Of a stretch of 64,000 bases of DNA, positions 4,701 through 13,705 are shown one piece after another. The position numbers and the translations under genes were made by a program. Positions within the stretch are counted from its first letter, which is position 1; each line of letters begins with the position of its first letter. The notes beneath the pieces were generated by a model. The model was not told the origin of the DNA. It was given only the letters and a program-made list of their open reading frames with translations, and ran no database searches. The stretch is from an uncultured Poribacteria bacterium (GTDB taxonomy: Bacteria; Poribacteria; WGA-4E; WGA-3G): positions 1,120,001 to 1,184,000 of the forward strand of contig CATQHZ020000001.1 in assembly GCA_958296135.2 (NCBI GenBank), written 5' to 3'.

Positions 4701-6215
4701 TTACACCTCACTCCTCACGAACACCAGAAATATCGCCATAAATAAGACAAAGTTGGTTAGCACTAGGAGGAAAAGATGCGGCACTGCGCGCTGTGCGTTT
4801 ACCGCAATCCCGCTTCGCTGGTAAGAGAACGGCGGCAGCGTGCTCCAATCTGCCTCCGCTTTATCTGACAGAAACCACTCTCGCGCCGCGTAAACCTCTG
4901 TATCGTAGAGATAATTGACGAGTGCCCGCCGCCACTGCCGGGCTGCGACAAAAAAGTCTTGGATGCTCCCCCAATCGGTGCCTGCCCATGCTTGTGTTGC
5001 TGCATCATACATGCCGATAGGTGAAAGGTTCAACCACATTCTGTCCACTGCCGCCTGCTGGCCGTAGATATCCTTGAGTGCGGCATCTCGGACGTGCCAT
5101 GTCTGCTCTGCAGTCTTTATCATCAGCGGCACCAGGAATCGGAAATAATTCTGTGCGTGCGGTACCAGCGTTTCGCCCCTCGGTCCAACTTCACTATACT
5201 GGATGCTTATCCAGTAGTAATACCTTAAGGTTCTCCGCGAAGAGTTAAAGTCTGCTCCCACACTTCCGTATCCGTGTATGCCTAAATCCGGTTCCTCTCC
5301 AGGAACCAGATCATTGTGGAGGAACTTGAGGCGTTCTCTATCAAATTCTGTCCACAGTTGCTCTATCTGCTCAAAAGCGGTATCTCTGCGCGCCCTCGGG
5401 TCTTCCGGCGGATCCGTGGCGACTAAGATGACGTTTGGATACACCAGCACTAAGAAGCCCCATGCGAACATAGAGACTATCAAGGCGGTGCTTGTGCGGC
5501 GTGTCGCCGCCGAGATGAGCATTCCGATGAGGTAGAACACCGAGAGATACGCGAGCGATGCTAGCACGATGCCGCCGATGCGGAGAAAATCGTCGGTGCT
5601 CAGCGCGACGGCGGTGGCGGTAGTTAGCAAAATCAGCGCGAGGAGCAGACTCATCACCAACGGCACCAGGAGGCAGAGCATTGCACTGATGTATTTGGCG
5701 AGCAGGATGTATCCGCGGCGGATAGAATTCGTCAGGACTAAGCGTAACGTGCCGCGTTCGTGTTCTCCCGCAATCGCATCGTAGGCGAAAATGAGTGCCA
5801 TCAGGCTGAGCACTACCTCGAAGATGAAGACGATGTCAATGGCGGTGAAGATATTGAAGAGCGGATTATCCGCCCCGTGTGTGAAAGCATCCCACAGTGT
5901 CGGCACCAAATCGTGCGCAGCCGATACCGAGTTGCCCAACCGTTTATCCAATCCGACGTTGAAAATACTTAACGGATTCGGCGGTCTGGCGAGTTTTATC
6001 TCTTCGGCCAACCCCGCCATATAATTCTTTTTCTCCCGCAATTTCTGTTGATGCGTTTTGACAGCGGTGTTGTAGTCGGCTAATCGCCGCTCGTAGTCTT
6101 CAATGAGCACGGCCGTATTGGCGACGATTAACAGCAACATGATAAAGAGTGCCGCTGCGAAGCGGAATGTCATCAGATTATCAAGCAGTTCTCGGCGGAT
6201 AAGTGTTGTTAGCAT
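4701..6215 (-). CDS. ABC-2 type transporter permease subunit (type B, copy 2)
   Basis: YDAIAGEHERGTLRLVLTN motif and TM helices. Paralog of 7720-9228. Confidence 0.88.
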   Translation of the reverse strand: MLTTLIRRELLDNLMTFRFAAALFIMLLLIVANTAVLIEDYERRLADYNTAVKTHQQKLREKKNYMAGLAEEIKLARPPNPLSIFNVGLDKRLGNSVSAAHDLVPTLWDAFTHGADNPLFNIFTAIDIVFIFEVVLSLMALIFAYDAIAGEHERGTLRLVLTNSIRRGYILLAKYISAMLCLLVPLVMSLLLALILLTTATAVALSTDDFLRIGGIVLASLAYLSVFYLIGMLISAATRRTSTALIVSMFAWGFLVLVYPNVILVATDPPEDPRARRDTAFEQIEQLWTEFDRERLKFLHNDLVPGEEPDLGIHGYGSVGADFNSSRRTLRYYYWISIQYSEVGPRGETLVPHAQNYFRFLVPLMIKTAEQTWHVRDAALKDIYGQQAAVDRMWLNLSPIGMYDAATQAWAGTDWGSIQDFFVAARQWRRALVNYLYDTEVYAAREWFLSDKAEADWSTLPPFSYQRSGIAVNAQRAVPHLFLLVLTNFVLFMAIFLVFVRSEV

Positions 6216-6255
6216 GAGGGTTGTCCGATGTTTTCAGTTTGTAGGCTAGGAGGGC

Positions 6256-7659
6256 TCAAATCTCCACGCGCACGAAGGCAAGATACGCCCCCAATAGCAG
6301 CACGATGAGAAACAGCACGAGCAGTAGCAAATCCATTGCGGCGGTGTTGAAATCTCTGCCCAGGTCGAGTGTATCCTTGAACTTTGGAATTGCTTCCATC
6401 GCGACTTTTTTCTGTGACATCCCTTCCCGCACGCCAACAACGTGGAGACTCTCCGCATCGTGCCGGTCTGTCTCAATGACAAATTTCTGGAATTGGCGGG
6501 CATAAGGCCGAACGTTCTGCAAGAATTGCCGGTGCCGCTCGAACCCTGTGCCAGCAAACGCTTCAAACAGGTGCTGCACCATCGCGACGGGTGAAATTCG
6601 GGTGATGCTGCGCGCTTCGCGAACTTGTTCGAGCTGCTGGGCTAAGTGTTCTTGGTTCAAGCGTTCCTGTAGTTGTGCTTCTTCGGTGACGTATTCTGCG
6701 AGTTCTCGTCTTCTTCTTTCGGGCTGCTCTGCGTCATAAGTGTCATATTTCTTCCGAAGTTCGGAGCCAATTTCCTTTCGTCGTTTCCGGTACTCATCGG
6801 AGGACATGGGCGATGAGAATCCGCTTGCGATGGAGGCGAGCGTGTTCGGCATGAATACCACCAGGCCTACCCACGTTAGCAAGAGAATCACGAGACTTAC
6901 CGCGCTGCGTTGCACGCGGGCGGAGACGAGCAAGCCTAACGCGAGGAAAAGGCAGACGTAGAGGATTGCGATGATGAAGATGATGCCTAGCCGGCCCCAC
7001 TCTCCTGCAGTGAGTTGGACACTGCGGGACATAGAAATCACCAGCAGGTTCATCAAGGTGGCGAGTGTGAAAGGGATGAGGAGACTGATGAGCGCGCCGA
7101 GGAACTTGCCGAGTAGCACGGTGTGCCGTGGAATGGCATTTGCTAGCATTAAGCGCAGTGTGCCGCTTTCCCGCTCACCGGCGATGGCATCAAACGTGAA
7201 CAGCAACGCAATCAGACTCAACACATAGCCGACGATGAATCCCCAATCCACTTTGGTAATGTCCGGCTCGATGTTGTCTACGTTCGGTGTGACAGTGGGA
7301 TATTTCAGCCGCCAAATGCTGCGTAGCCCACTAGCCCAGCCCCAATCGCCGCTCCCGCCGTGGACAACGTTCGGCAAAAAGGCTTCTCCGCCCTCTGCAC
7401 AGAAGTGGAGCGATGACGGCGTTTTGTAAAGCCTGCCGGGCCCTCTGCGGACAAGTTCATACAAGTTGTCAGCCCGGTCTCTCAAACTGTTCAGAGATTC
7501 GGCGACTGCGTCGTGATATTTCTGCATCCGTTTTGGATGTTCGCGCAGATGCACCACGGCGTTGGTGAGCATCAGTGCGAGGAGCAGGAGGGTTGTCAAA
7601 CCGAAGCGGAGGCTATTGAGATTCTCGTAAATTTCGCGTGTTGCGATGTGCCAAATCAT
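6256..7659 (-). CDS. ABC-2 type transporter permease subunit (type A, copy 1)
   Basis: Same motifs as 3237-4646, with the identical N-terminus MIWHIATREIYENL. Confidence 0.88.
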   Translation of the reverse strand: MIWHIATREIYENLNSLRFGLTTLLLLALMLTNAVVHLREHPKRMQKYHDAVAESLNSLRDRADNLYELVRRGPGRLYKTPSSLHFCAEGGEAFLPNVVHGGSGDWGWASGLRSIWRLKYPTVTPNVDNIEPDITKVDWGFIVGYVLSLIALLFTFDAIAGERESGTLRLMLANAIPRHTVLLGKFLGALISLLIPFTLATLMNLLVISMSRSVQLTAGEWGRLGIIFIIAILYVCLFLALGLLVSARVQRSAVSLVILLLTWVGLVVFMPNTLASIASGFSSPMSSDEYRKRRKEIGSELRKKYDTYDAEQPERRRRELAEYVTEEAQLQERLNQEHLAQQLEQVREARSITRISPVAMVQHLFEAFAGTGFERHRQFLQNVRPYARQFQKFVIETDRHDAESLHVVGVREGMSQKKVAMEAIPKFKDTLDLGRDFNTAAMDLLLLVLFLIVLLLGAYLAFVRVEI

Positions 7660-7719
7660 TTTTGTGTCACCCGATGTCGGGGTAGGCGCGGTTTGAAACC
7701 GCGCCTACCGGACGGCCCT

Positions 7720-9228
7720 TTAGACTTCGCTTCTCACAAAAATCAGAAATATCGCCATAAACAAGACGAGGCTAATCATGAGCAAGAGCATCATATCCGG
7801 CAATGCGCGCTTTGCATTTATCTCCACGCTTCTTCTCTCAAAAGAGAACTGCGGTAGTGTGCTCCAATCCGCCGCGCTTTTGTCTGCCAAAAACCATTCC
7901 CGTGCACCGAACGCGTCTTTATCCTCGTAGTAGGTTATCACCGTTTGCCGGTACTGCCGCGCGGCATCAAAAAAATCGCGGATACCGAGGAGATTTGTGC
8001 CGGCCCAGGCTTGTGTTGCGGCATCATATACCCCGAGGGGCGAGAGTTTCAACAGGGTTCTCTTAAGGTTCGCCTGCCGCACGAGGGTGTCCACCAGTGC
8101 CTCTTTCCGAATGAGCCAGGTCCGGTCTGCTGTTTGAATCGTCAGCGGGATGAGGAATCTGTGATAATTTTGGACGTGTGGCACGGCTGGTTGGTATTCT
8201 TCATCAATTTCATCAAAGGCCAGCGTCCTGTCATATATATTAAAAAGTGTTAACCGATTTTGGTAATAGGATTCCACAGCATACCCCCAATACCCTTTAA
8301 TGTTAAACTTCGAGTCTTCCCCCGGAAAAGCGTCCGCTGCGAGAAAGCGTTGCCGTTCCCTGTCAAACTCCTCCCAAATCTGTTTGATGTGATTCAAGGC
8401 GGAGGCGGCACGCTCTTGGGGGATGTCCGATGTCTCGAGCGTCGCGAGCATCATGTTCGGATAGACGAGCACCAGAAAACCCCACACGAACATTGCGAGC
8501 ATGAGTGCAGTGCTGGTGCGGTGCGTTATGGCGGAGATCAGGAGTCCGATGAGATAGAACACCGACAAGTATGCAATGGATGCGAGGAATATCCCCCCGA
8601 TGCGGAGAAAGTCGTCGGCGCGCAAGGAAATGGCGGCGGAGGTTGTCAACAAAATGAGCGCGAAGAGCAGACTCATTACCACTGGCACGAGGAGGCACGT
8701 CATCGCGCTGATATATTTGGCAAGCAGCAGGTGGCCACGGCTGACAGAGTTCGTCAGCACGAGGCGTAAGGTGCCGCGTTCACGTTCTCCGGCGAGCGCG
8801 TCGTAGGCGAACATCAGTGCTATTAAGCTGAGAACTACCTCAAAAATAAAACCCAGGTCTATCGCAGAGAAGAGGTTGAGGAGCGGATTGTCGGAACCGT
8901 TCATGCCTGCTTCCCACAGCGTTGGCACCGTGTTATACATCAGCCAGAGCTCGTTGCCCAACCGTTTGTCCAATCCGACGTTGAAGATACTCAACGGATT
9001 CGGTGGCCGGTTGAGCACTATTTCTCCGTCTGCATACATTTTTTTCTTTTGCAGTTCCTGCCGATTCGTTTTAACAGCGGTGTTGTAGTCCCCCAATCGC
9101 CGCTCGTAATCGTTGATGAGGACCGCCGTATTGGCGACGACTAAGAGCAACATGACAAGCAGTGCGGCGGCGAAGCGGAACGTCATGAGGTTGTCGAGCA
9201 GTTCTCGGCGGATGAGTGTGGTTAACAT
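7720..9228 (-). CDS. ABC-2 type transporter permease subunit (type B, copy 1)
   Basis: Start placed at MLTTLIRRELLDNL (9228) by match to the paralog. YDALAGERERGTLRL motif. Confidence 0.87.
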   Translation of the reverse strand: MLTTLIRRELLDNLMTFRFAAALLVMLLLVVANTAVLINDYERRLGDYNTAVKTNRQELQKKKMYADGEIVLNRPPNPLSIFNVGLDKRLGNELWLMYNTVPTLWEAGMNGSDNPLLNLFSAIDLGFIFEVVLSLIALMFAYDALAGERERGTLRLVLTNSVSRGHLLLAKYISAMTCLLVPVVMSLLFALILLTTSAAISLRADDFLRIGGIFLASIAYLSVFYLIGLLISAITHRTSTALMLAMFVWGFLVLVYPNMMLATLETSDIPQERAASALNHIKQIWEEFDRERQRFLAADAFPGEDSKFNIKGYWGYAVESYYQNRLTLFNIYDRTLAFDEIDEEYQPAVPHVQNYHRFLIPLTIQTADRTWLIRKEALVDTLVRQANLKRTLLKLSPLGVYDAATQAWAGTNLLGIRDFFDAARQYRQTVITYYEDKDAFGAREWFLADKSAADWSTLPQFSFERRSVEINAKRALPDMMLLLMISLVLFMAIFLIFVRSEV

Positions 9229-9300
9229 GCTACTTTCTCGGCACTTGATTTGCTCCACTTGTCCCGACTTCTCGGCGGATGAGTGTGGTTAACATGCTAC
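9202..9300. repeat. 32-bp exact direct repeat with 35-bp unique insert
   Basis: ttctcggcggatgagtgtggttaacatgctac at 9202-9233 and 9269-9300. Confidence 0.92.
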
Positions 9301-9480
9301 CGCTCCCTAGAACTTATGATAATCTGGACAAATCTATCCTAATCTGACCTGTCCTCTTATCTGTCGTAGTTGCTGTTTCAACGCGTCGTGCCTCCGAGAC
9401 ACACGAGGTGTGCCTACTATGAGGGCTTATAGTCGCTCCGCAGCCGTTTTACCTCTCCGTCAAGCTCGCGGCGAGGGTTC
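9300..9480 (-). ncRNA. Putative TnpB omega/reRNA scaffold
   Basis: Position inferred from TnpB biology: it overlaps the tnpB 3' end and runs to the right end. Boundaries are approximate. Confidence 0.55.
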
Positions 9481-10549
9481 TTAAATTATGCGCGGCATTC
9501 AAGTCGCGGTCGATACCCACGCCACATGCCTCGCAGTGATATGTCCGCTCCGAGAGGGACAACTTCGTCTTCTTCTTCCCGCAAGCACTGCACGTCTTCG
9601 ATGACGGGAAGTTCACCGGTGCTTCGATAATCTCAACGCCGTGTGCCGCTGCTTTATACCGAAGCATCGTCAGGAAACCACTTAATGACGCATCGCTCAA
9701 CGCCTTTGCAAGACGGCGGTTTTTCAACAAGCCTGCCACGCGTAGACGCTCGATGCCGAGAACGTCAGCCGACTTTACAATCGCCGTGCTTGCCTTGTGA
9801 TGGGCATCCTCACGGAGACAGCAGATACGATAGTGAATCTTCTGAACGCGCACCTGCTTCCGATACCAATTCCTGCTTCGGTAAACCGAACGAGAGAGCT
9901 GACGCTGCGCACGCCGCAACTTCCGTAGATAGCGGTAGAGTGCCTTTGGGTTTTCAAACTCAACACCATCGGATGTCACGGCTAGGGTTTTGATACCTAC
10001 ATCAACACCAACTACCCGCATAGGACCCGCCTCAGAACGCACACGTGGCGCGCTGTCGGAAACCACCTTCACGAGAACCGATAGAAACCACCTGCCTGCA
10101 CGTTTTGAGACGACACACCGCCGAATCTCGCCACGCCACCGTAACTTCTCGCGCAGGCGAACCCAGCCAATCTTCGGTAGTTTGACACGTTTCTTATCAA
10201 TTCTCACACGTTCATTCGGTTGGTAGGAAGTCCTACTCGCTCGGGTGTGATAACGTGGGAATCGATTTTGACCGCGCCGCCACCGTTTGACTGCGTCATC
10301 AATGTGCATCACAGCGTTCTTTGCTGCACGTTGGTCGAGTTCCTTACACCACGGATATGTCTCGTGTTTCACGGCGTTGAATCGAACGTTCAACGTGTAA
10401 CCACTGCGCCACTCGTTTTCGGCGAGTCCCGCCTTGAAATCTGAGAGTGCATGGTTACGCGCCACGCGTGCATAACCACAATGTCGTGCAAGCAGCGTCG
10501 CCTGCTTATTATTCGGGTCCAACGCCATTAAATGCGTTTTCAATGTCAT
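9449..10549 (-). CDS. tnpB: RNA-guided endonuclease TnpB
   Basis: RuvC-I GVDVG, RuvC-II IERL, Zn finger CSAC..CEAC and RuvC-III DRDLNAA. N-terminal LDPNNKQ..ARHCGYAR HTH region. The catalytic D/E/D appear intact. Confidence 0.93.
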   Translation of the reverse strand: MTLKTHLMALDPNNKQATLLARHCGYARVARNHALSDFKAGLAENEWRSGYTLNVRFNAVKHETYPWCKELDQRAAKNAVMHIDDAVKRWRRGQNRFPRYHTRASRTSYQPNERVRIDKKRVKLPKIGWVRLREKLRWRGEIRRCVVSKRAGRWFLSVLVKVVSDSAPRVRSEAGPMRVVGVDVGIKTLAVTSDGVEFENPKALYRYLRKLRRAQRQLSRSVYRSRNWYRKQVRVQKIHYRICCLREDAHHKASTAIVKSADVLGIERLRVAGLLKNRRLAKALSDASLSGFLTMLRYKAAAHGVEIIEAPVNFPSSKTCSACGKKKTKLSLSERTYHCEACGVGIDRDLNAAHNLRTLAASLTER

Positions 10550-10657
10550 AGAGCGTCACCGTTCGCCGTTGTTTTTCCTTCCTACTAAGGTAAGGTGGAG
10601 GTGAGAGACACGGCGGGCAGCCGCGCTTAGTAGGTCTCACCTCCCAACGGTAACTAT

Positions 10658-10686
10658 ATTCTACCACAAAATCAAGCAGAACGCAA
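10658..10686 (-). promoter_or_regulatory. Sigma70-type promoter for tnpB
   Basis: Minus strand TTGCGT-17nt-TAGAAT with extended TG. Confidence 0.55.
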
Positions 10687-10730
10687 GTCAAAATGCACAT
10701 CGATAGATTCGGGTAGGTTCTGCTAGATTC

Positions 10731-11819
10731 TCATAGAGTTCTCGCCACTGCACCGATGCCCTGTTGCGCTACAAAAATGCGGTAGATTTCCTCAAACAAG
10801 CGCACATCTGTCAGCGTATCTTCGGCGGAGGAGCGGAACGGTTCATCGCTGCGGACATTCGCCACAAAGTATTCCGCCTCCCGGCGGTATGCCCACGTCC
10901 ACGCGGGGCGCGGAATAGGACGCGTGAGCTCCTGCTCTTCACCGGCGCGGTAAATTTCCACTTCGGCAGGTGTATTCTTCAACAACAGCGGCGGTGCCCA
11001 GGTGTGAACCCACCCGTTTTCAAAGTAGATTTGGCTATGCTCGTCCCACCGATAATGTGAGACATGCCCGGTCTCCAGCGTTACCCGAATGCCGCCCATA
11101 TTAAAGAGGACAACGCCGGCATACCCGTTTGCATCCAGATCGACGGCGGTAATGCTGACATCGTCGCCTGCATCGAGCAACCAGCGCATGAGGTTGATGT
11201 TGTGCGTGTACTGCTGGAGGTATCCCAAATAGGGGCGGCGATATTGCTCAGGCAGCCACTCCGGGGTGATGATAGGCGCGCTCGGCTTCGGTTCTTCCGT
11301 GCTGTCCATCTGTGTATCCAGATTGCACACCCAATCGCCGCCAAATCCGTGATTTCGGGCATAAGTCAACCTGCCGAGTTCACCGGATTCTCGGAATTGG
11401 GTGACTTTCTCCTTGACAATCTCGTTGCCGGCATCGTACCGTTTCATGTAGCCTACCATCAGTTTTTTGCCGGCTGTGCGCGAGGCATCGACGATGGCTT
11501 CCGCTTGCGCGAGGGAGACAGCCATCGGTTTCTCCATGAAGACGTGCTTGCCGGCGAGCAGCAGGTCCTTCGCGATTTCGCCTTGGAGCGCGAAGTCTGC
11601 GGATACGGCGACGGCTTCAATGTCCGCGTCTTGAGCGAGTTCGTGATGGTGTGCGTAAAGCCGTGGGATGCCGAACCTTTTTTGAACTTTCGCGCCGAGT
11701 TCGGTGCGCACCTCGGCGAGCGCGAGGAGTTCGCAGTCTGGGGTGCCGGTAAAGTTTGGGATGTGAACCTTTTGCGCCATGAATCCACATCCAATGTAAC
11801 CGAGTCGGATTTTTTCCAT
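10731..11819 (-). CDS. Gfo/Idh/MocA family oxidoreductase
   Basis: IRLGYIGCGFMA Rossmann motif and HVFMEKPMA. Start moved to MEKIRL because the upstream extension is repeat DNA. Confidence 0.9.
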   Translation of the reverse strand: MEKIRLGYIGCGFMAQKVHIPNFTGTPDCELLALAEVRTELGAKVQKRFGIPRLYAHHHELAQDADIEAVAVSADFALQGEIAKDLLLAGKHVFMEKPMAVSLAQAEAIVDASRTAGKKLMVGYMKRYDAGNEIVKEKVTQFRESGELGRLTYARNHGFGGDWVCNLDTQMDSTEEPKPSAPIITPEWLPEQYRRPYLGYLQQYTHNINLMRWLLDAGDDVSITAVDLDANGYAGVVLFNMGGIRVTLETGHVSHYRWDEHSQIYFENGWVHTWAPPLLLKNTPAEVEIYRAGEEQELTRPIPRPAWTWAYRREAEYFVANVRSDEPFRSSAEDTLTDVRLFEEIYRIFVAQQGIGAVARTL

Positions 11820-11840
11820 TCCAATTTCCTCAAAATCGAG

Positions 11841-12072
11841 TTTCCATTCCCTTGCGACGGGAAAGCGCAGTTCAAATCGAGACCGGGAGGTCTCTCCTAC
11901 AGGCGGATCCCATCGCGGGGTTTCCATTGCCTTGCGACGGGAAAGCGCAGTTCAAATTGAGACCGGGAGGTCTCTCCTACAGGCGGATCCCATCGCGAGG
12001 TTTCCATTGCCTTGCAACGGGCAAGCGCAGCTCGAATCGAGACCGGGAGGTCTCTCCTACAGGCGGATCCCT
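11841..12072. repeat. 80-bp tandem repeat x~3, each containing a GTAG REP
   Basis: Units start at 11841, 11921 and 12001. Confidence 0.9.
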
Positions 12073-13142: not shown

Positions 13143-13155
13143 AAAAAATCTCCTT

Positions 13156-13705
13156 CGTGGCCGCCCGGCATCGCGGGGGACAGGCCCCCGCGCTACGGTA
13201 GGAGAGACGGCTCTACATCGGTGGTCAGGCTTCCGCGCTGCGGTAGTCGTGGCCGCCCGGCATCGCGGGGGCCAGGCCCCCGCGCTACGGTAGGAGAGAC
13301 GGCTCTACATCGGTGGTCAGGCTTCCGCGCTGCGGTAGTCGTGGCCGCTCGGCATCGCGGGGGCCAGGCCCCCGCGCTACGGTAGGAGAGACGGCTCTAC
13401 ATCGGTGGTCAGGCTTCCGCGCTGCGGGAGTCGTGGCCGCTCGGCATCGCGGGGGCCAGGCCCCCGCGCTACGGTAGGAGAGACGGCTCTACATCGGTGG
13501 TCAGGCTTCCGCGCTGTGGGAGTCGTGGCCGCTCGGCATCGCGGGGGCCAGGCCCCCGCGCTACGGTAGGAGAGACGGCTCTACATCGGTGGTCAGGCTT
13601 CTGCGCTGCGGGAGTCGTGGCTGCTCGGCATCGCGGGGGACAGGCCCCCGCGCTACGGTAGGAGAGGGAGCCTCACGTCGGAAGACAGGCTTCCGCGATG
13701 CGGGA
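13156..13705. repeat. 92-bp tandem repeat x~6 containing a REP-like palindrome
   Basis: Units start at 13156, 13248, 13340, 13432, 13524 and 13616. Each carries atcgcggggg(a/c)caggcccccgcgctac. Confidence 0.92.

What the first reader, a model, noticed from the sequence alone, without database searches (positions are those of the whole stretch)
9202..9300. TnpB guide flank duplicated as repeat-spacer-repeat over the start codon of the neighbouring ABC operon
Seen: just outside the predicted right end (...GAGCGG), the sequence TAGCATGTTAACCACACTCATCCGCCGAGAA recurs exactly 67 bp downstream and covers the permease ATG. The architecture is 32 bp, 35 bp unique, 32 bp. The first copy also starts a 21-aa mini-ORF (9295-9230) that stops 1 nt before the permease ATG. 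Established: TnpB uses the right flank as guide, and nuclease-dead TldRs repress ABC transporter genes. Inference, three options: (a) a cis target for TnpB-guided regulation, since the target copy is preceded by GAAAG rather than the presumed TAM AGTGG and so may avoid cutting; (b) an ectopic Cas1-Cas2-like integration forming a nascent CRISPR-like unit beside tnpB; (c) a repair scar.
Basis: partly seen in the sequence, partly recalled or inferred. Interest (0 to 1): 0.8.

Follow-up and report, generated by a model that had tools for sequence, protein, structure and literature searches.

The report
Stray CRISPR spacer beside TnpB transposon
A 67-base insertion next to a jumping gene most likely records the bacterium's own CRISPR memory enzyme pasting one spacer into the wrong place, which copied the start of a transporter gene without breaking it; this is a rare natural footprint of a known process, not a new regulatory device.

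Summary
An exact 32-nt direct repeat (9202-9233 and 9269-9300) flanks a 35-nt insert and abuts the right end of a tnpB-only insertion sequence.

Two bases are ambiguous, so the structure reads equally as a 30-nt duplication around a 37-nt insert, period 67. That is the geometry of two native CRISPR arrays in this genome: 30-nt repeats with spacers mostly 37-38 nt. One array has a complete type I-B operon with Cas4, Cas1 and Cas2.

The duplicated 30-mer matches the repeat of array B at 18 of 30 positions in exact register; 4.8e-5 of genome positions do as well. The insert copies a unique locus elsewhere, 35 of 37. Two congeners have one copy and no IS.

Best reading, confidence about 0.5: one off-target Cas1-Cas2 spacer integration, made after the IS arrived.

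Option (a), TnpB-guided regulation, is not supported. The RuvC triad is intact, the element has ten copies, and the presumed TAM lies inside the element.

Unexplained: the duplication starts within 1 nt of the IS end, and an 8-nt word ends both repeat and insert. A repair scar at the IS end remains a rival.

The parts
9269..9300 (-). Repeat copy next to the IS. It is a 32-nt exact repeat; read as a 30-nt pseudo-repeat it spans 9300->9271, followed by 2 ambiguous bases at 9270-9269. Base 9300 is the last G of the IS right end.
   Evidence: exact repeat; right end identical in 10 of 10 copies; 18 of 30 to the array-B repeat, starting at 9300
9234..9268 (-). Insert, spacer-like. It is 35 nt, or 37 nt (9234-9270) if the two ambiguous A's are counted with it.
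   Evidence: 33 of 35 (35 of 37) identical to G000:C1:919677-919711 (919675-919711), the only other match in the genome; not a strong hairpin (-3.7 kcal/mol; 11 of 200 shuffles fold as well)
9202..9233 (-). Repeat copy next to the gene (30-nt reading: 9233->9204). It carries the true permease start codon at 9228-9226 and the duplicated ancestral TAG stop at 9232-9230.
   Evidence: (orthologues start with the same first residues)
9230..9295 (-). 21-codon ORF created by the duplication. It starts at the duplicated ATG, 7 nt after a GGGAG in the IS end, and stops 1 nt before the permease ATG.
   Evidence: translation; sequence. That it is translated is inference.
7720..9228 (-). ABC-2 type permease gene (502 aa from ATG 9228), first of three tandem paralogues. 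It is left intact by the insertion.
   Evidence: PF12679, E 2.9e-33; DUF3526
9300..10762 (-). tnpB-only insertion sequence, about 1463 bp; left end near 10762, right end at 9300. No transposase gene inside.
   Evidence: ten full copies at 85-94% DNA identity share these ends
9449..10549 (-). tnpB (366 aa); RuvC D-E-D retained.
   Evidence: OrfB_IS605, Cas12f1-like_TNB; guided_TnpB, 264.6 bits; E 2.5e-52 to ISDra2 TnpB, aligned catalytic residues conserved
9300..9448 (-). Non-coding right-end segment, the expected omegaRNA scaffold. The guide would be the flank from 9299 downward.
   Evidence: Position is inferred from what is established for TnpB elements. No Rfam family reaches threshold (RAGATH-18, 21.9 bits against a cut-off of 44.9).
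10731..11927 (-). GFO/IDH/MocA oxidoreductase gene. Its last codons and stop now come from the IS left end.
   Evidence: in congener G001 the gene ends with a stop, 1 nt, then the permease ATG

Best explanation
The structure is the footprint of a single off-target ('ectopic') CRISPR spacer integration. The host adaptation integrase is most likely Cas1-Cas2, with Cas4, of the type I-B system, whose arrays have 30-nt repeats.

The integrase attacked two points 30 bp apart on opposite strands of a stretch that resembles a CRISPR repeat. That stretch began with the last G of the IS right end and ran through the first eight codons of the permease gene. A 37-nt prespacer was joined in, and gap repair duplicated the 30 bp.

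The prespacer came from DNA nearly identical to a small ORF downstream of a DNA methyltransferase gene elsewhere in the chromosome, or from a foreign relative of it.

Shown: the anatomy, the matching geometry, the resemblance to a native repeat, the presence of the enzymes, and the single-copy state in two congeners.

Inferred: the enzyme responsible, the order of events (IS first, then integration), and the consequences.

Consequences:
- The permease ORF stays whole.
- A 21-codon decoy ORF now sits between the Shine-Dalgarno-like end of the IS and the true start, and may pass ribosomes on by termination-reinitiation.
- The TnpB guide is unchanged, so the unit is not a working CRISPR array for TnpB.
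For: (1) Geometry. The 32+35+32 structure has a 2-nt ambiguity, because the donor also carries AA before the insert. It therefore reads equally as 30+37+30, period 67. Native array B has 30-nt repeats, with 18 spacers of 34-46 nt (38 nt x6, 37 nt x4). Native array C has 30-nt repeats, with 71 spacers of 33-41 nt (38 nt x23, 37 nt x11).

(2) Enzymes. Array C follows a type I-B operon: Cas6, Cas7, Cas5, Cas3, Cas4, Cas1b (452.5 bits) and Cas2 (Cas1 also).

(3) Repeat likeness. The 30-mer starting at 9300 (and at 9233) matches the array-B repeat at 18 of 30 positions in exactly that register. Across the genome, 543 of 10,375,878 positions score 18 or more, and 40 of those lie in array B itself, so the rate is 4.8e-5. 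With about 18 array, strand and register combinations, that is about 9e-4. Among 13 doublets of similar geometry in the genome, this one scores highest; the others reach at most 16.

(4) The insert is copied DNA. It matches G000:C1:919675-919711 at 35 of 37, the only other match.

(5) Derived state. Congener G001 has oxidoreductase stop, 1 nt, then the permease ATG, with one copy and no IS. Congener G002 has one copy after about 390 bp of REP-like DNA.

(6) Precedent. P. furiosus Cas1-Cas2 (30-bp repeats, 37-bp spacers) integrates off target at paired sites 30-31 bp apart. Those sites resemble the repeat, and G is preferred at the joint (PMC6698737, passages read). That paper cites Nivala et al. 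2018 for in vivo neo-CRISPR generation; I did not read the Nivala paper itself.
Against: (1) The duplication begins within 1 nt of the IS right end. If sites were chosen only by repeat likeness, this would be a chance of roughly 1e-5 to 1e-6.

(2) The IS end shows no similarity to the leaders of arrays B or C. In local alignment, 460 of 500 and 142 of 500 shuffles reach the observed score.

(3) An 8-nt word (GCCGAGAA) ends both the repeat and the insert. The integrase model does not predict this.

(4) No PAM could be derived. 0 of 127 native spacers have a convincing self-match, and array C has no match in phage or plasmid collections.

(5) The match to the type I-B array's own repeat (array C) is poor: 8 of 30 in register by my own count, and the best off-register scores are 13-15. 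The resemblance is to array B, which sits next to iscB and has no cas1 beside it. Use of array B by the I-B integrase is therefore assumed.

(6) The insert differs from the chromosomal donor at two adjacent bases, while the two repeat copies are identical.

(7) This is one event. None of 76 related TnpB loci, and none of the other 33 tnpB/iscB genes in this genome, shows anything like it.
Confidence: 0.5

Rival explanations
1. A repair scar made at the IS end. A nick or break at the right-end/flank junction (from the element's transposase or from TnpB) combines with a second nick about 30 nt away on the other strand. Both ends are filled in, and they are rejoined with a captured or template-switched 35-37-nt filler. 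This also gives right end-X-filler-X.
For: It is the only reading that explains why the duplication starts at the IS boundary. The filler is a copy of the genome's own DNA. Short homologies exist at one junction, and the 8-nt word shared by the end of X and the end of the filler hints at homology-guided synthesis.
Against: - No template-switch path I could write uses the 8-nt word and also gives the observed order.
- The junction microhomologies are only 0-2 nt.
- No canonical IS200/IS605 TnpA was found. The only Y1 hits are two weak ones of 45.2 and 30.2 bits in 274- and 226-aa frames.
- No Ku was found in a genome that is 94.7% complete.
- TnpB is reported to cut 15-21 bp from the TAM (recalled, not read here), not 30-32.
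- Under this model, the 30/37 geometry and the 18 of 30 match to a native repeat would both be coincidences, jointly about 1e-5.
- None of the other 9 copies, nor of the other 33 tnpB/iscB genes, has such a scar.
Confidence: 0.17
2. A product of the same unknown process that made other short insertion-plus-duplication units in this genome. Five REP-hairpin inserts of 35-41 nt are flanked by 28-33-nt duplications, also 66-69 nt apart.
For: Of 129 unique-flank doublets with spacing 30-160, ten have spacing 66-69. Five of these carry REP-like hairpin inserts, with duplication and insert lengths that compensate. An earlier unchecked scan note, e1-5079327, describes a constant-sum process of this kind in another genome.
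Against: - The insert here is unique-sequence DNA and not a hairpin.
- The REP inserts match only the multi-copy REP core.
- Their flanks do not resemble native repeats: at most 16 of 30 after about 30-44 tests each.
- This reading explains neither the IS boundary nor the repeat likeness.
- The REP cases could themselves be integrase products.
Confidence: 0.08
3. A functional cis target. The second copy of the guide-matching flank lets TnpB-omegaRNA bind over the permease start and regulate the ABC genes, in the manner of TldR.
For: A perfect second match to the presumed guide lies over the permease start codon. TldR-type repressors derived from TnpB exist (PMC10705468, abstract seen in a listing).
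Against: - RuvC D-E-D is retained.
- The element has 10 copies with intact ends.
- The duplication is unique to this copy.
- A nuclease-active TnpB with a perfect chromosomal target would be harmful unless a TAM is lacking, and if the TAM is lacking, binding is not expected either.
- The structure is fully explained as a by-product.
Confidence: 0.03
4. An assembly artefact.
For: Short exact repeats can be mis-assembled.
Against: A read-derived contig spans copy 1-insert-copy 2 (9204-9298) in 4 of 4 runs, at the depth of the flanking unique contig. The runs come from one sample, possibly the source of the assembly.
Confidence: 0.02

Closest known systems
Off-target (non-canonical) Cas1-Cas2 spacer integration, 'neo-CRISPR' units (Nivala, Shipman and Church 2018, recalled and seen only as a citation; Grainy et al. 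2019, PMC6698737, passages read)
   Same: An exact duplication of a repeat-length, repeat-like target around a spacer-length insert copied from elsewhere. The host has the integrase. Spacing of 30 bp and G at the first position, as for the P. furiosus 30-bp/37-bp system.
   Different: It sits exactly at the scaffold/guide boundary of a TnpB element. It resembles the repeat of an IscB-linked array rather than the I-B array's own repeat. PAM and leader likeness are not shown.
Proposed origin of type V (and IscB-linked) CRISPR arrays from omegaRNA (Altae-Tran et al. 2023, PMC10691335, passages read)
   Same: A repeat-spacer-repeat unit lies downstream of tnpB, where Cas12 arrays lie. The same genome has an iscB with an array upstream.
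   Different: That model supposes duplication of omegaRNA segments. Here the duplicated unit is the guide/flank plus only 1 nt of the element, so the new insert lies about 30 nt beyond the scaffold and cannot serve as a TnpB guide as it stands.
TldR, nuclease-dead TnpB-derived RNA-guided repressors (PMC10705468, abstract in a search listing only)
   Same: A TnpB-family protein next to ABC transporter genes, with a guide-matching site at a gene start.
   Different: The catalytic residues are intact, and the element is multi-copy and mobile. The match is simply the transposon flank, duplicated.
Templated-insertion or fill-in repair scars at staggered breaks
   Same: A duplication flanking a filler copied from another locus; the boundary lies at a site where an element-encoded enzyme may cut.
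   Different: No Ku was found, microhomologies are minimal, and the lengths coincide with the host CRISPR ruler.

Membership tests
Off-target Cas1-Cas2 spacer integration (neo-CRISPR unit) | Exact duplication of the target, equal in length to the host's CRISPR repeat | tested here: met
   The duplication is 30-32 nt (2 nt ambiguous). Arrays B and C have 30-nt repeats.
Off-target Cas1-Cas2 spacer integration (neo-CRISPR unit) | Insert length within the host's spacer range | tested here: met
   The insert is 35-37 nt. Native spacers are 34-46 nt in array B (n=18) and 33-41 nt in array C (n=71), with modes at 37-38.
Off-target Cas1-Cas2 spacer integration (neo-CRISPR unit) | Adaptation genes present in the genome | tested here: met
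   Cas1b, Cas2 and Cas4 of type I-B, and a Cas4-Cas1 fusion of type I-D.
Off-target Cas1-Cas2 spacer integration (neo-CRISPR unit) | The target resembles a native repeat in register | tested here: met
   18 of 30 to the array-B repeat; genome-wide rate 4.8e-5. The match to the I-B array C repeat is poor.
Off-target Cas1-Cas2 spacer integration (neo-CRISPR unit) | The insert is a copy of a protospacer found elsewhere | tested here: met
   35 of 37 to C1:919675-919711. No match in viral or metagenome contigs.
Off-target Cas1-Cas2 spacer integration (neo-CRISPR unit) | The system's PAM lies beside the protospacer | tested here: inconclusive
   The PAM is unknown. There are no self-matches of native spacers and no phage or plasmid matches for array C. 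A family-wide search was swamped by homologous arrays.
Off-target Cas1-Cas2 spacer integration (neo-CRISPR unit) | Leader-like sequence upstream of the target | tested here: not met
   IS right end against the leaders of B and C: 460 of 500 and 142 of 500 shuffles reach the observed score. This feature is not required for all off-target sites.
Functional CRISPR array | Several repeats, an adjacent leader or cas genes, and a processed crRNA | tested here: not met
   Only two repeats. The only cas1 genes lie at 3.65 and 4.40 Mb, while the window is at 1.12-1.18 Mb. RNA was not testable.
TldR-type nuclease-dead TnpB regulator | Loss of RuvC catalytic residues | tested here: not met
   D, E and D are aligned and conserved against ISDra2 TnpB. 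The residue numbers of ISDra2 are recalled.
TldR-type nuclease-dead TnpB regulator | Immobilised, single-copy gene without transposon ends | tested here: not met
   Ten copies with shared left and right ends.
IS200/IS605-IS607 superfamily tnpB element | TnpB domains and conserved multi-copy ends with differing flanks | tested here: met
IS200/IS605-IS607 superfamily tnpB element | A cognate TnpA (Y1 or serine recombinase) in the element | tested here: not met
   No tnpA in any of the 10 copies. The genome has 2 weak Y1 hits and 3 serine recombinases, one of which lies 68 nt upstream of a distant tnpB. The element is non-autonomous and its mobilising enzyme is not identified.

The most novel reading that the evidence does not exclude
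The scaffold/guide junction of OMEGA elements is a preferred landing site for host Cas1-Cas2. Under this reading the unit is a caught-in-the-act first step in the birth of a CRISPR array beside tnpB. The same genome holds the mature counterpart: a 20-repeat array placed at the guide position of a single-copy iscB. The new pseudo-repeat resembles that array's repeat. This would explain why the integration starts within 1 nt of the IS end, which chance does not.
Probability: 0.1. Interest if true: 0.85.

Novelty: new member of a known kind. Interest (0 to 1): 0.5.

Why it matters
Natural footprints of off-target spacer integration are rarely documented together with the host's own repeat length, spacer length, integrase genes and donor locus. 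Here all four can be checked in one genome.

Its position at the exact point where a TnpB guide begins bears on an open question: how CRISPR arrays came to lie next to TnpB- and IscB-derived nucleases. The genome also has an iscB with an array. If the position is more than chance, that question becomes testable with one integrase and one DNA substrate.

If it is chance, the finding is a neat but ordinary scar that left the transporter gene intact.

Tried and rejected
- Searched the 35-nt insert, with the two variable positions left open, in viral contigs and metagenome contigs: 0 matches each.
- Blasted 127 native spacers against the genome itself: only 17-21-nt chance hits, so no PAM.
- Searched array C against the phage and plasmid collections: no match.
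- Searched array C against 111 family genomes: 77 matched, but through homologous arrays only, so nothing was learned about protospacers.
- Compared the IS right end with the array leaders: nothing.
- Rfam: no omegaRNA family. Only RAGATH-18, below threshold.
- Promoter and terminator scan of 9000-10900: at chance level.
- RNA evidence: no RNA holder listed, so expression is untested.
- The donor's small ORF was not found at the syntenic place in G001 or G002. My first translation of it was one base out of frame; this affects no conclusion.
- Looked for flank duplications at 76 of the 80 related TnpB loci; 4 were too short to scan. Found one trivial 20-nt repeat and none with CRISPR geometry.
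- Tried to write template-switch paths that use the 8-nt shared word: none gives the observed order (reasoning).
- The 37+35+37 doublet on contig C3 was considered as a second event, by the type I-D integrase. It scores 12 of 37 to repeat A and has no donor, so it was not pursued.
- The autonomous-looking serine-recombinase/tnpB pair at C1:3726105-3727668 does not carry this element's end motifs, so the mobilising enzyme stays unknown.
- Nivala et al. 2018 is not held in the library.
- Supplements are closed. The SI tables of PMC10691335, which list array-associated TnpB and IscB loci, might already include relatives of these loci.
Full report
OBSERVATION

The region 9202-9300 holds two exact 32-nt direct repeats (9202-9233 and 9269-9300, + strand), 67 nt apart, with 35 nt between them. 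Neither the exact 32-mer nor the exact 35-mer occurs elsewhere in the 5.19-Mb, four-contig genome.

All genes here run on the minus strand. In order they are: a GFO/IDH/MocA oxidoreductase gene (11927-10731), a tnpB gene (10549-9449), then three tandem ABC-2 permease paralogues, the first starting at ATG 9228.

In read-derived contigs of four runs from a single sample, one contig covers 9204-9298 without a difference. Its depth matches that of the flanking unique contig. Both junctions of the insert are therefore in reads. The sample may be the one the assembly came from, so this is not independent support.

THE ELEMENT AND ITS ENDS

A search of the genome with the region finds ten full-length copies of a roughly 1.46-kb tnpB-only element, at 85-94% DNA identity. 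All ten end in the same 12 nt, closing with GAGCGG. Beyond that point the flanks are unrelated.

In the window the last G of the element is base 9300, which is also the first base of the repeat copy next to the IS. On the left, the copies begin to align at about 10762.

The TnpB aligns to ISDra2 TnpB at E 2.5e-52, with the three aligned RuvC residues conserved. The residue numbers in ISDra2 are recalled, not read here.

The genome holds 32 tnpB loci in at least three subfamilies. It holds no canonical Y1 TnpA: there are only two weak hits, in 274- and 226-aa frames. It has three serine recombinases, one directly upstream of a distant tnpB. The enzyme that mobilises this element is therefore not identified.

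The 80 closest TnpB loci in public genomes all carry titles of Candidatus Poribacteria MAGs.

ANCESTRAL STATE

In congener G001 the oxidoreductase gene ends with a stop codon, followed by 1 nt and then the permease ATG. It has one copy of the permease start and no IS. In congener G002, about 390 bp of REP-like DNA separates the two genes, again with one copy.

The window genome therefore gained the IS, which landed between the last sense codon and the stop of the oxidoreductase gene, and it gained the 67 nt.

The TAG that closes the 21-codon ORF 1 nt before the permease ATG is most simply the duplicated ancestral stop of the oxidoreductase gene. That it falls in frame is a one-in-three accident.

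WHERE THE INSERT CAME FROM

The insert matches one other place, G000:C1:919677-919711, at 33 of 35. With the two A's that precede it in both places, the match is 35 of 37.

That place lies in a small ORF just downstream of a 535-aa DNA methyltransferase gene, near a Rad50-like ATPase gene. The small ORF was not found at the syntenic position in G001 or G002.

The two differences are adjacent bases. No copy of the insert was found in viral or metagenome contigs. The insert is not a strong hairpin.

THE CRISPR CONNECTION

The genome has three arrays.
- Array A has 38 repeats of 37 nt and sits next to a type I-D operon with a Cas4-Cas1 fusion.
- Array C has 72 repeats of 30 nt with spacers of 33-41 nt. 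It sits next to a full type I-B operon including Cas4, Cas1b and Cas2.
- Array B has 20 repeats of 30 nt with spacers of 34-46 nt. It lies 326 nt upstream of a single-copy iscB gene and has no cas1 nearby.

Because of the 2-nt ambiguity, the window structure is equally 30+37+30, with period 67. That is the commonest geometry of arrays B and C.

The 30-mer that starts at 9300 on the minus strand, and its twin at 9233, matches the array-B repeat at 18 of 30 positions in exactly that register and orientation. An exhaustive count gives 543 of 10,375,878 genome positions at 18 or more, 40 of them in array B itself. The rate is 4.8e-5 per position, or about 9e-4 after allowing for three arrays, two strands and three registers.

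Published work on a 30-bp-repeat, 37-bp-spacer system shows the same behaviour off target: paired integration points 30-31 bp apart at sites that resemble the repeat, with G preferred at the joint (PMC6698737, passages read). The pseudo-repeat here begins with G.

WHAT DOES NOT FIT

Four things do not fit the integrase reading.
1. The duplication begins within 1 nt of the IS end. If roughly 500 repeat-like sites were equally likely targets, this is a coincidence of the order of 1e-5 to 1e-6.
2. The IS end does not resemble the leaders of arrays B or C, so leader mimicry does not explain the position.
3. The 8-nt word GCCGAGAA ends both the repeat and the insert. I found no model that uses it.
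4. No PAM could be derived. The resemblance is to array B, not to the I-B array's own repeat, so I must assume that the I-B integrase also feeds array B.

WEIGHING THE RIVALS

A break-and-repair scar at the IS end explains the boundary. It must then treat the 30/37 geometry and the repeat likeness as coincidences, jointly about 1e-5. It also lacks its enzymes here: no canonical TnpA and no Ku were found. It has left no trace at the other 9 copies or at any of the other 33 tnpB/iscB genes; 1 of 119 unique-flank doublets on the main contig lies within 500 nt of such a gene, and it is this one.

By my rough reckoning the two readings have similar likelihoods. I favour the integrase because the reaction is known and the enzymes are present.

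A third possibility came from a genome-wide scan. Of 129 unique-flank doublets with spacing 30-160, ten have spacing 66-69. Five of those carry REP-hairpin inserts flanked by 28-33-nt duplications. An earlier, unchecked note of this scan describes a similar constant-sum process elsewhere.

Those five inserts match only the multi-copy REP core, and their flanks are not repeat-like. I therefore treat them as a different, unexplained phenomenon.

THE TNPB-REGULATION IDEA

I rejected the TnpB-regulation idea for three reasons: the nuclease residues are intact, the element is one of ten mobile copies, and the duplication is unique to this copy.

CONSEQUENCES (INFERRED)

The permease ORF is intact. 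The GGGAG near the IS end now serves the 21-codon ORF, 7 nt upstream of its ATG. The true start has only a weak purine run upstream and may depend on reinitiation after the TAG.

The TnpB guide, which is the flank from 9299 downward, is unchanged. The second guide match, 67 nt downstream, is preceded by AAAG, not by the GG-ending motif seen at left flanks.

The unit is not a usable CRISPR array for TnpB, because the insert lies about 30 nt beyond the scaffold.

A survey of 76 related TnpB loci found no similar unit. This argues that the position is a one-off, not a hot spot.

VERDICT

This is a real structure and most likely a single off-target spacer integration, a known kind of event. It is made more interesting by its position at a TnpB guide boundary and by the iscB-linked array in the same genome. 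The boundary coincidence is not resolved.

Noticed in passing
L023:11961-15261 (G000:C1:3817960-3821260): A single-copy iscB gene (555 aa; guided_IscB E 3.5e-110) has a 20-repeat CRISPR array (30-nt repeats, 34-46-nt spacers) 326 nt upstream on its own strand, at the place where an IscB guide would lie. No cas1 is nearby. It looks like a CRISPR-associated IscB. The degenerate repeats are at the end far from iscB.
   Followed up: partly
G000:C1 right-end flanks of the ten IS copies (window 9226-9300; C1:1930082, 3123682, 3760657 and others): In 4 of 10 copies the right end lies 4-9 nt upstream of the ATG of a co-oriented ORF of 106 aa or more. The right end carries GGGAG near its tip. The element therefore seems to land between a gene's ribosome-binding site and its start, and to supply a replacement site.
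   Followed up: partly
window 10544-10762 and 11 other places in G000:C1 (e.g. 239590-239804, 4533820-4534036): The roughly 210-nt left end of this element (79-90% identity) also precedes tnpB genes that are only 42-44% identical in protein. Two tnpB subfamilies therefore share one left end but have different right ends.
   Followed up: partly
G000:C1:970231, 2975810, 4985311, 3748675, 4031474: REP-like hairpin inserts of 35-41 nt are flanked by 28-33-nt duplications of otherwise unique sequence, always 66-69 nt apart, with one mismatch between the copies. The mechanism is unknown. The flanks are not like the CRISPR repeats.
   Followed up: partly
L028 (G000:C3:14589-14697): An exact 37-nt duplication surrounds a 35-nt insert on a small GC-rich contig. 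The period of 72 is like that of the type I-D array A, but the match to that repeat is only 12 of 37, and no donor was found in the genome.
   Followed up: partly
G000:C1:4398128 (inside array C): A 29-nt stretch of spacer sequence recurs 61 nt later, so the same spacer seems to occur twice in a row in array C.
   Followed up: no
window 13155-13660: A tandem array of roughly 92-nt units built from REP-like palindromes. It shows up as a ladder of overlapping 54-aa ORFs.
   Followed up: no
window 10731-10762: The IS insertion replaced the stop of the GFO/IDH/MocA oxidoreductase gene. The gene now reads about 10 codons into the IS left end before stopping.
   Followed up: partly
window 4701-9228: Three tandem ABC-2 permease paralogues (504, 467 and 502 aa), each with a DUF3526 region. 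The first 30-40 nt of the paralogues are 84-91% alike.
   Followed up: no
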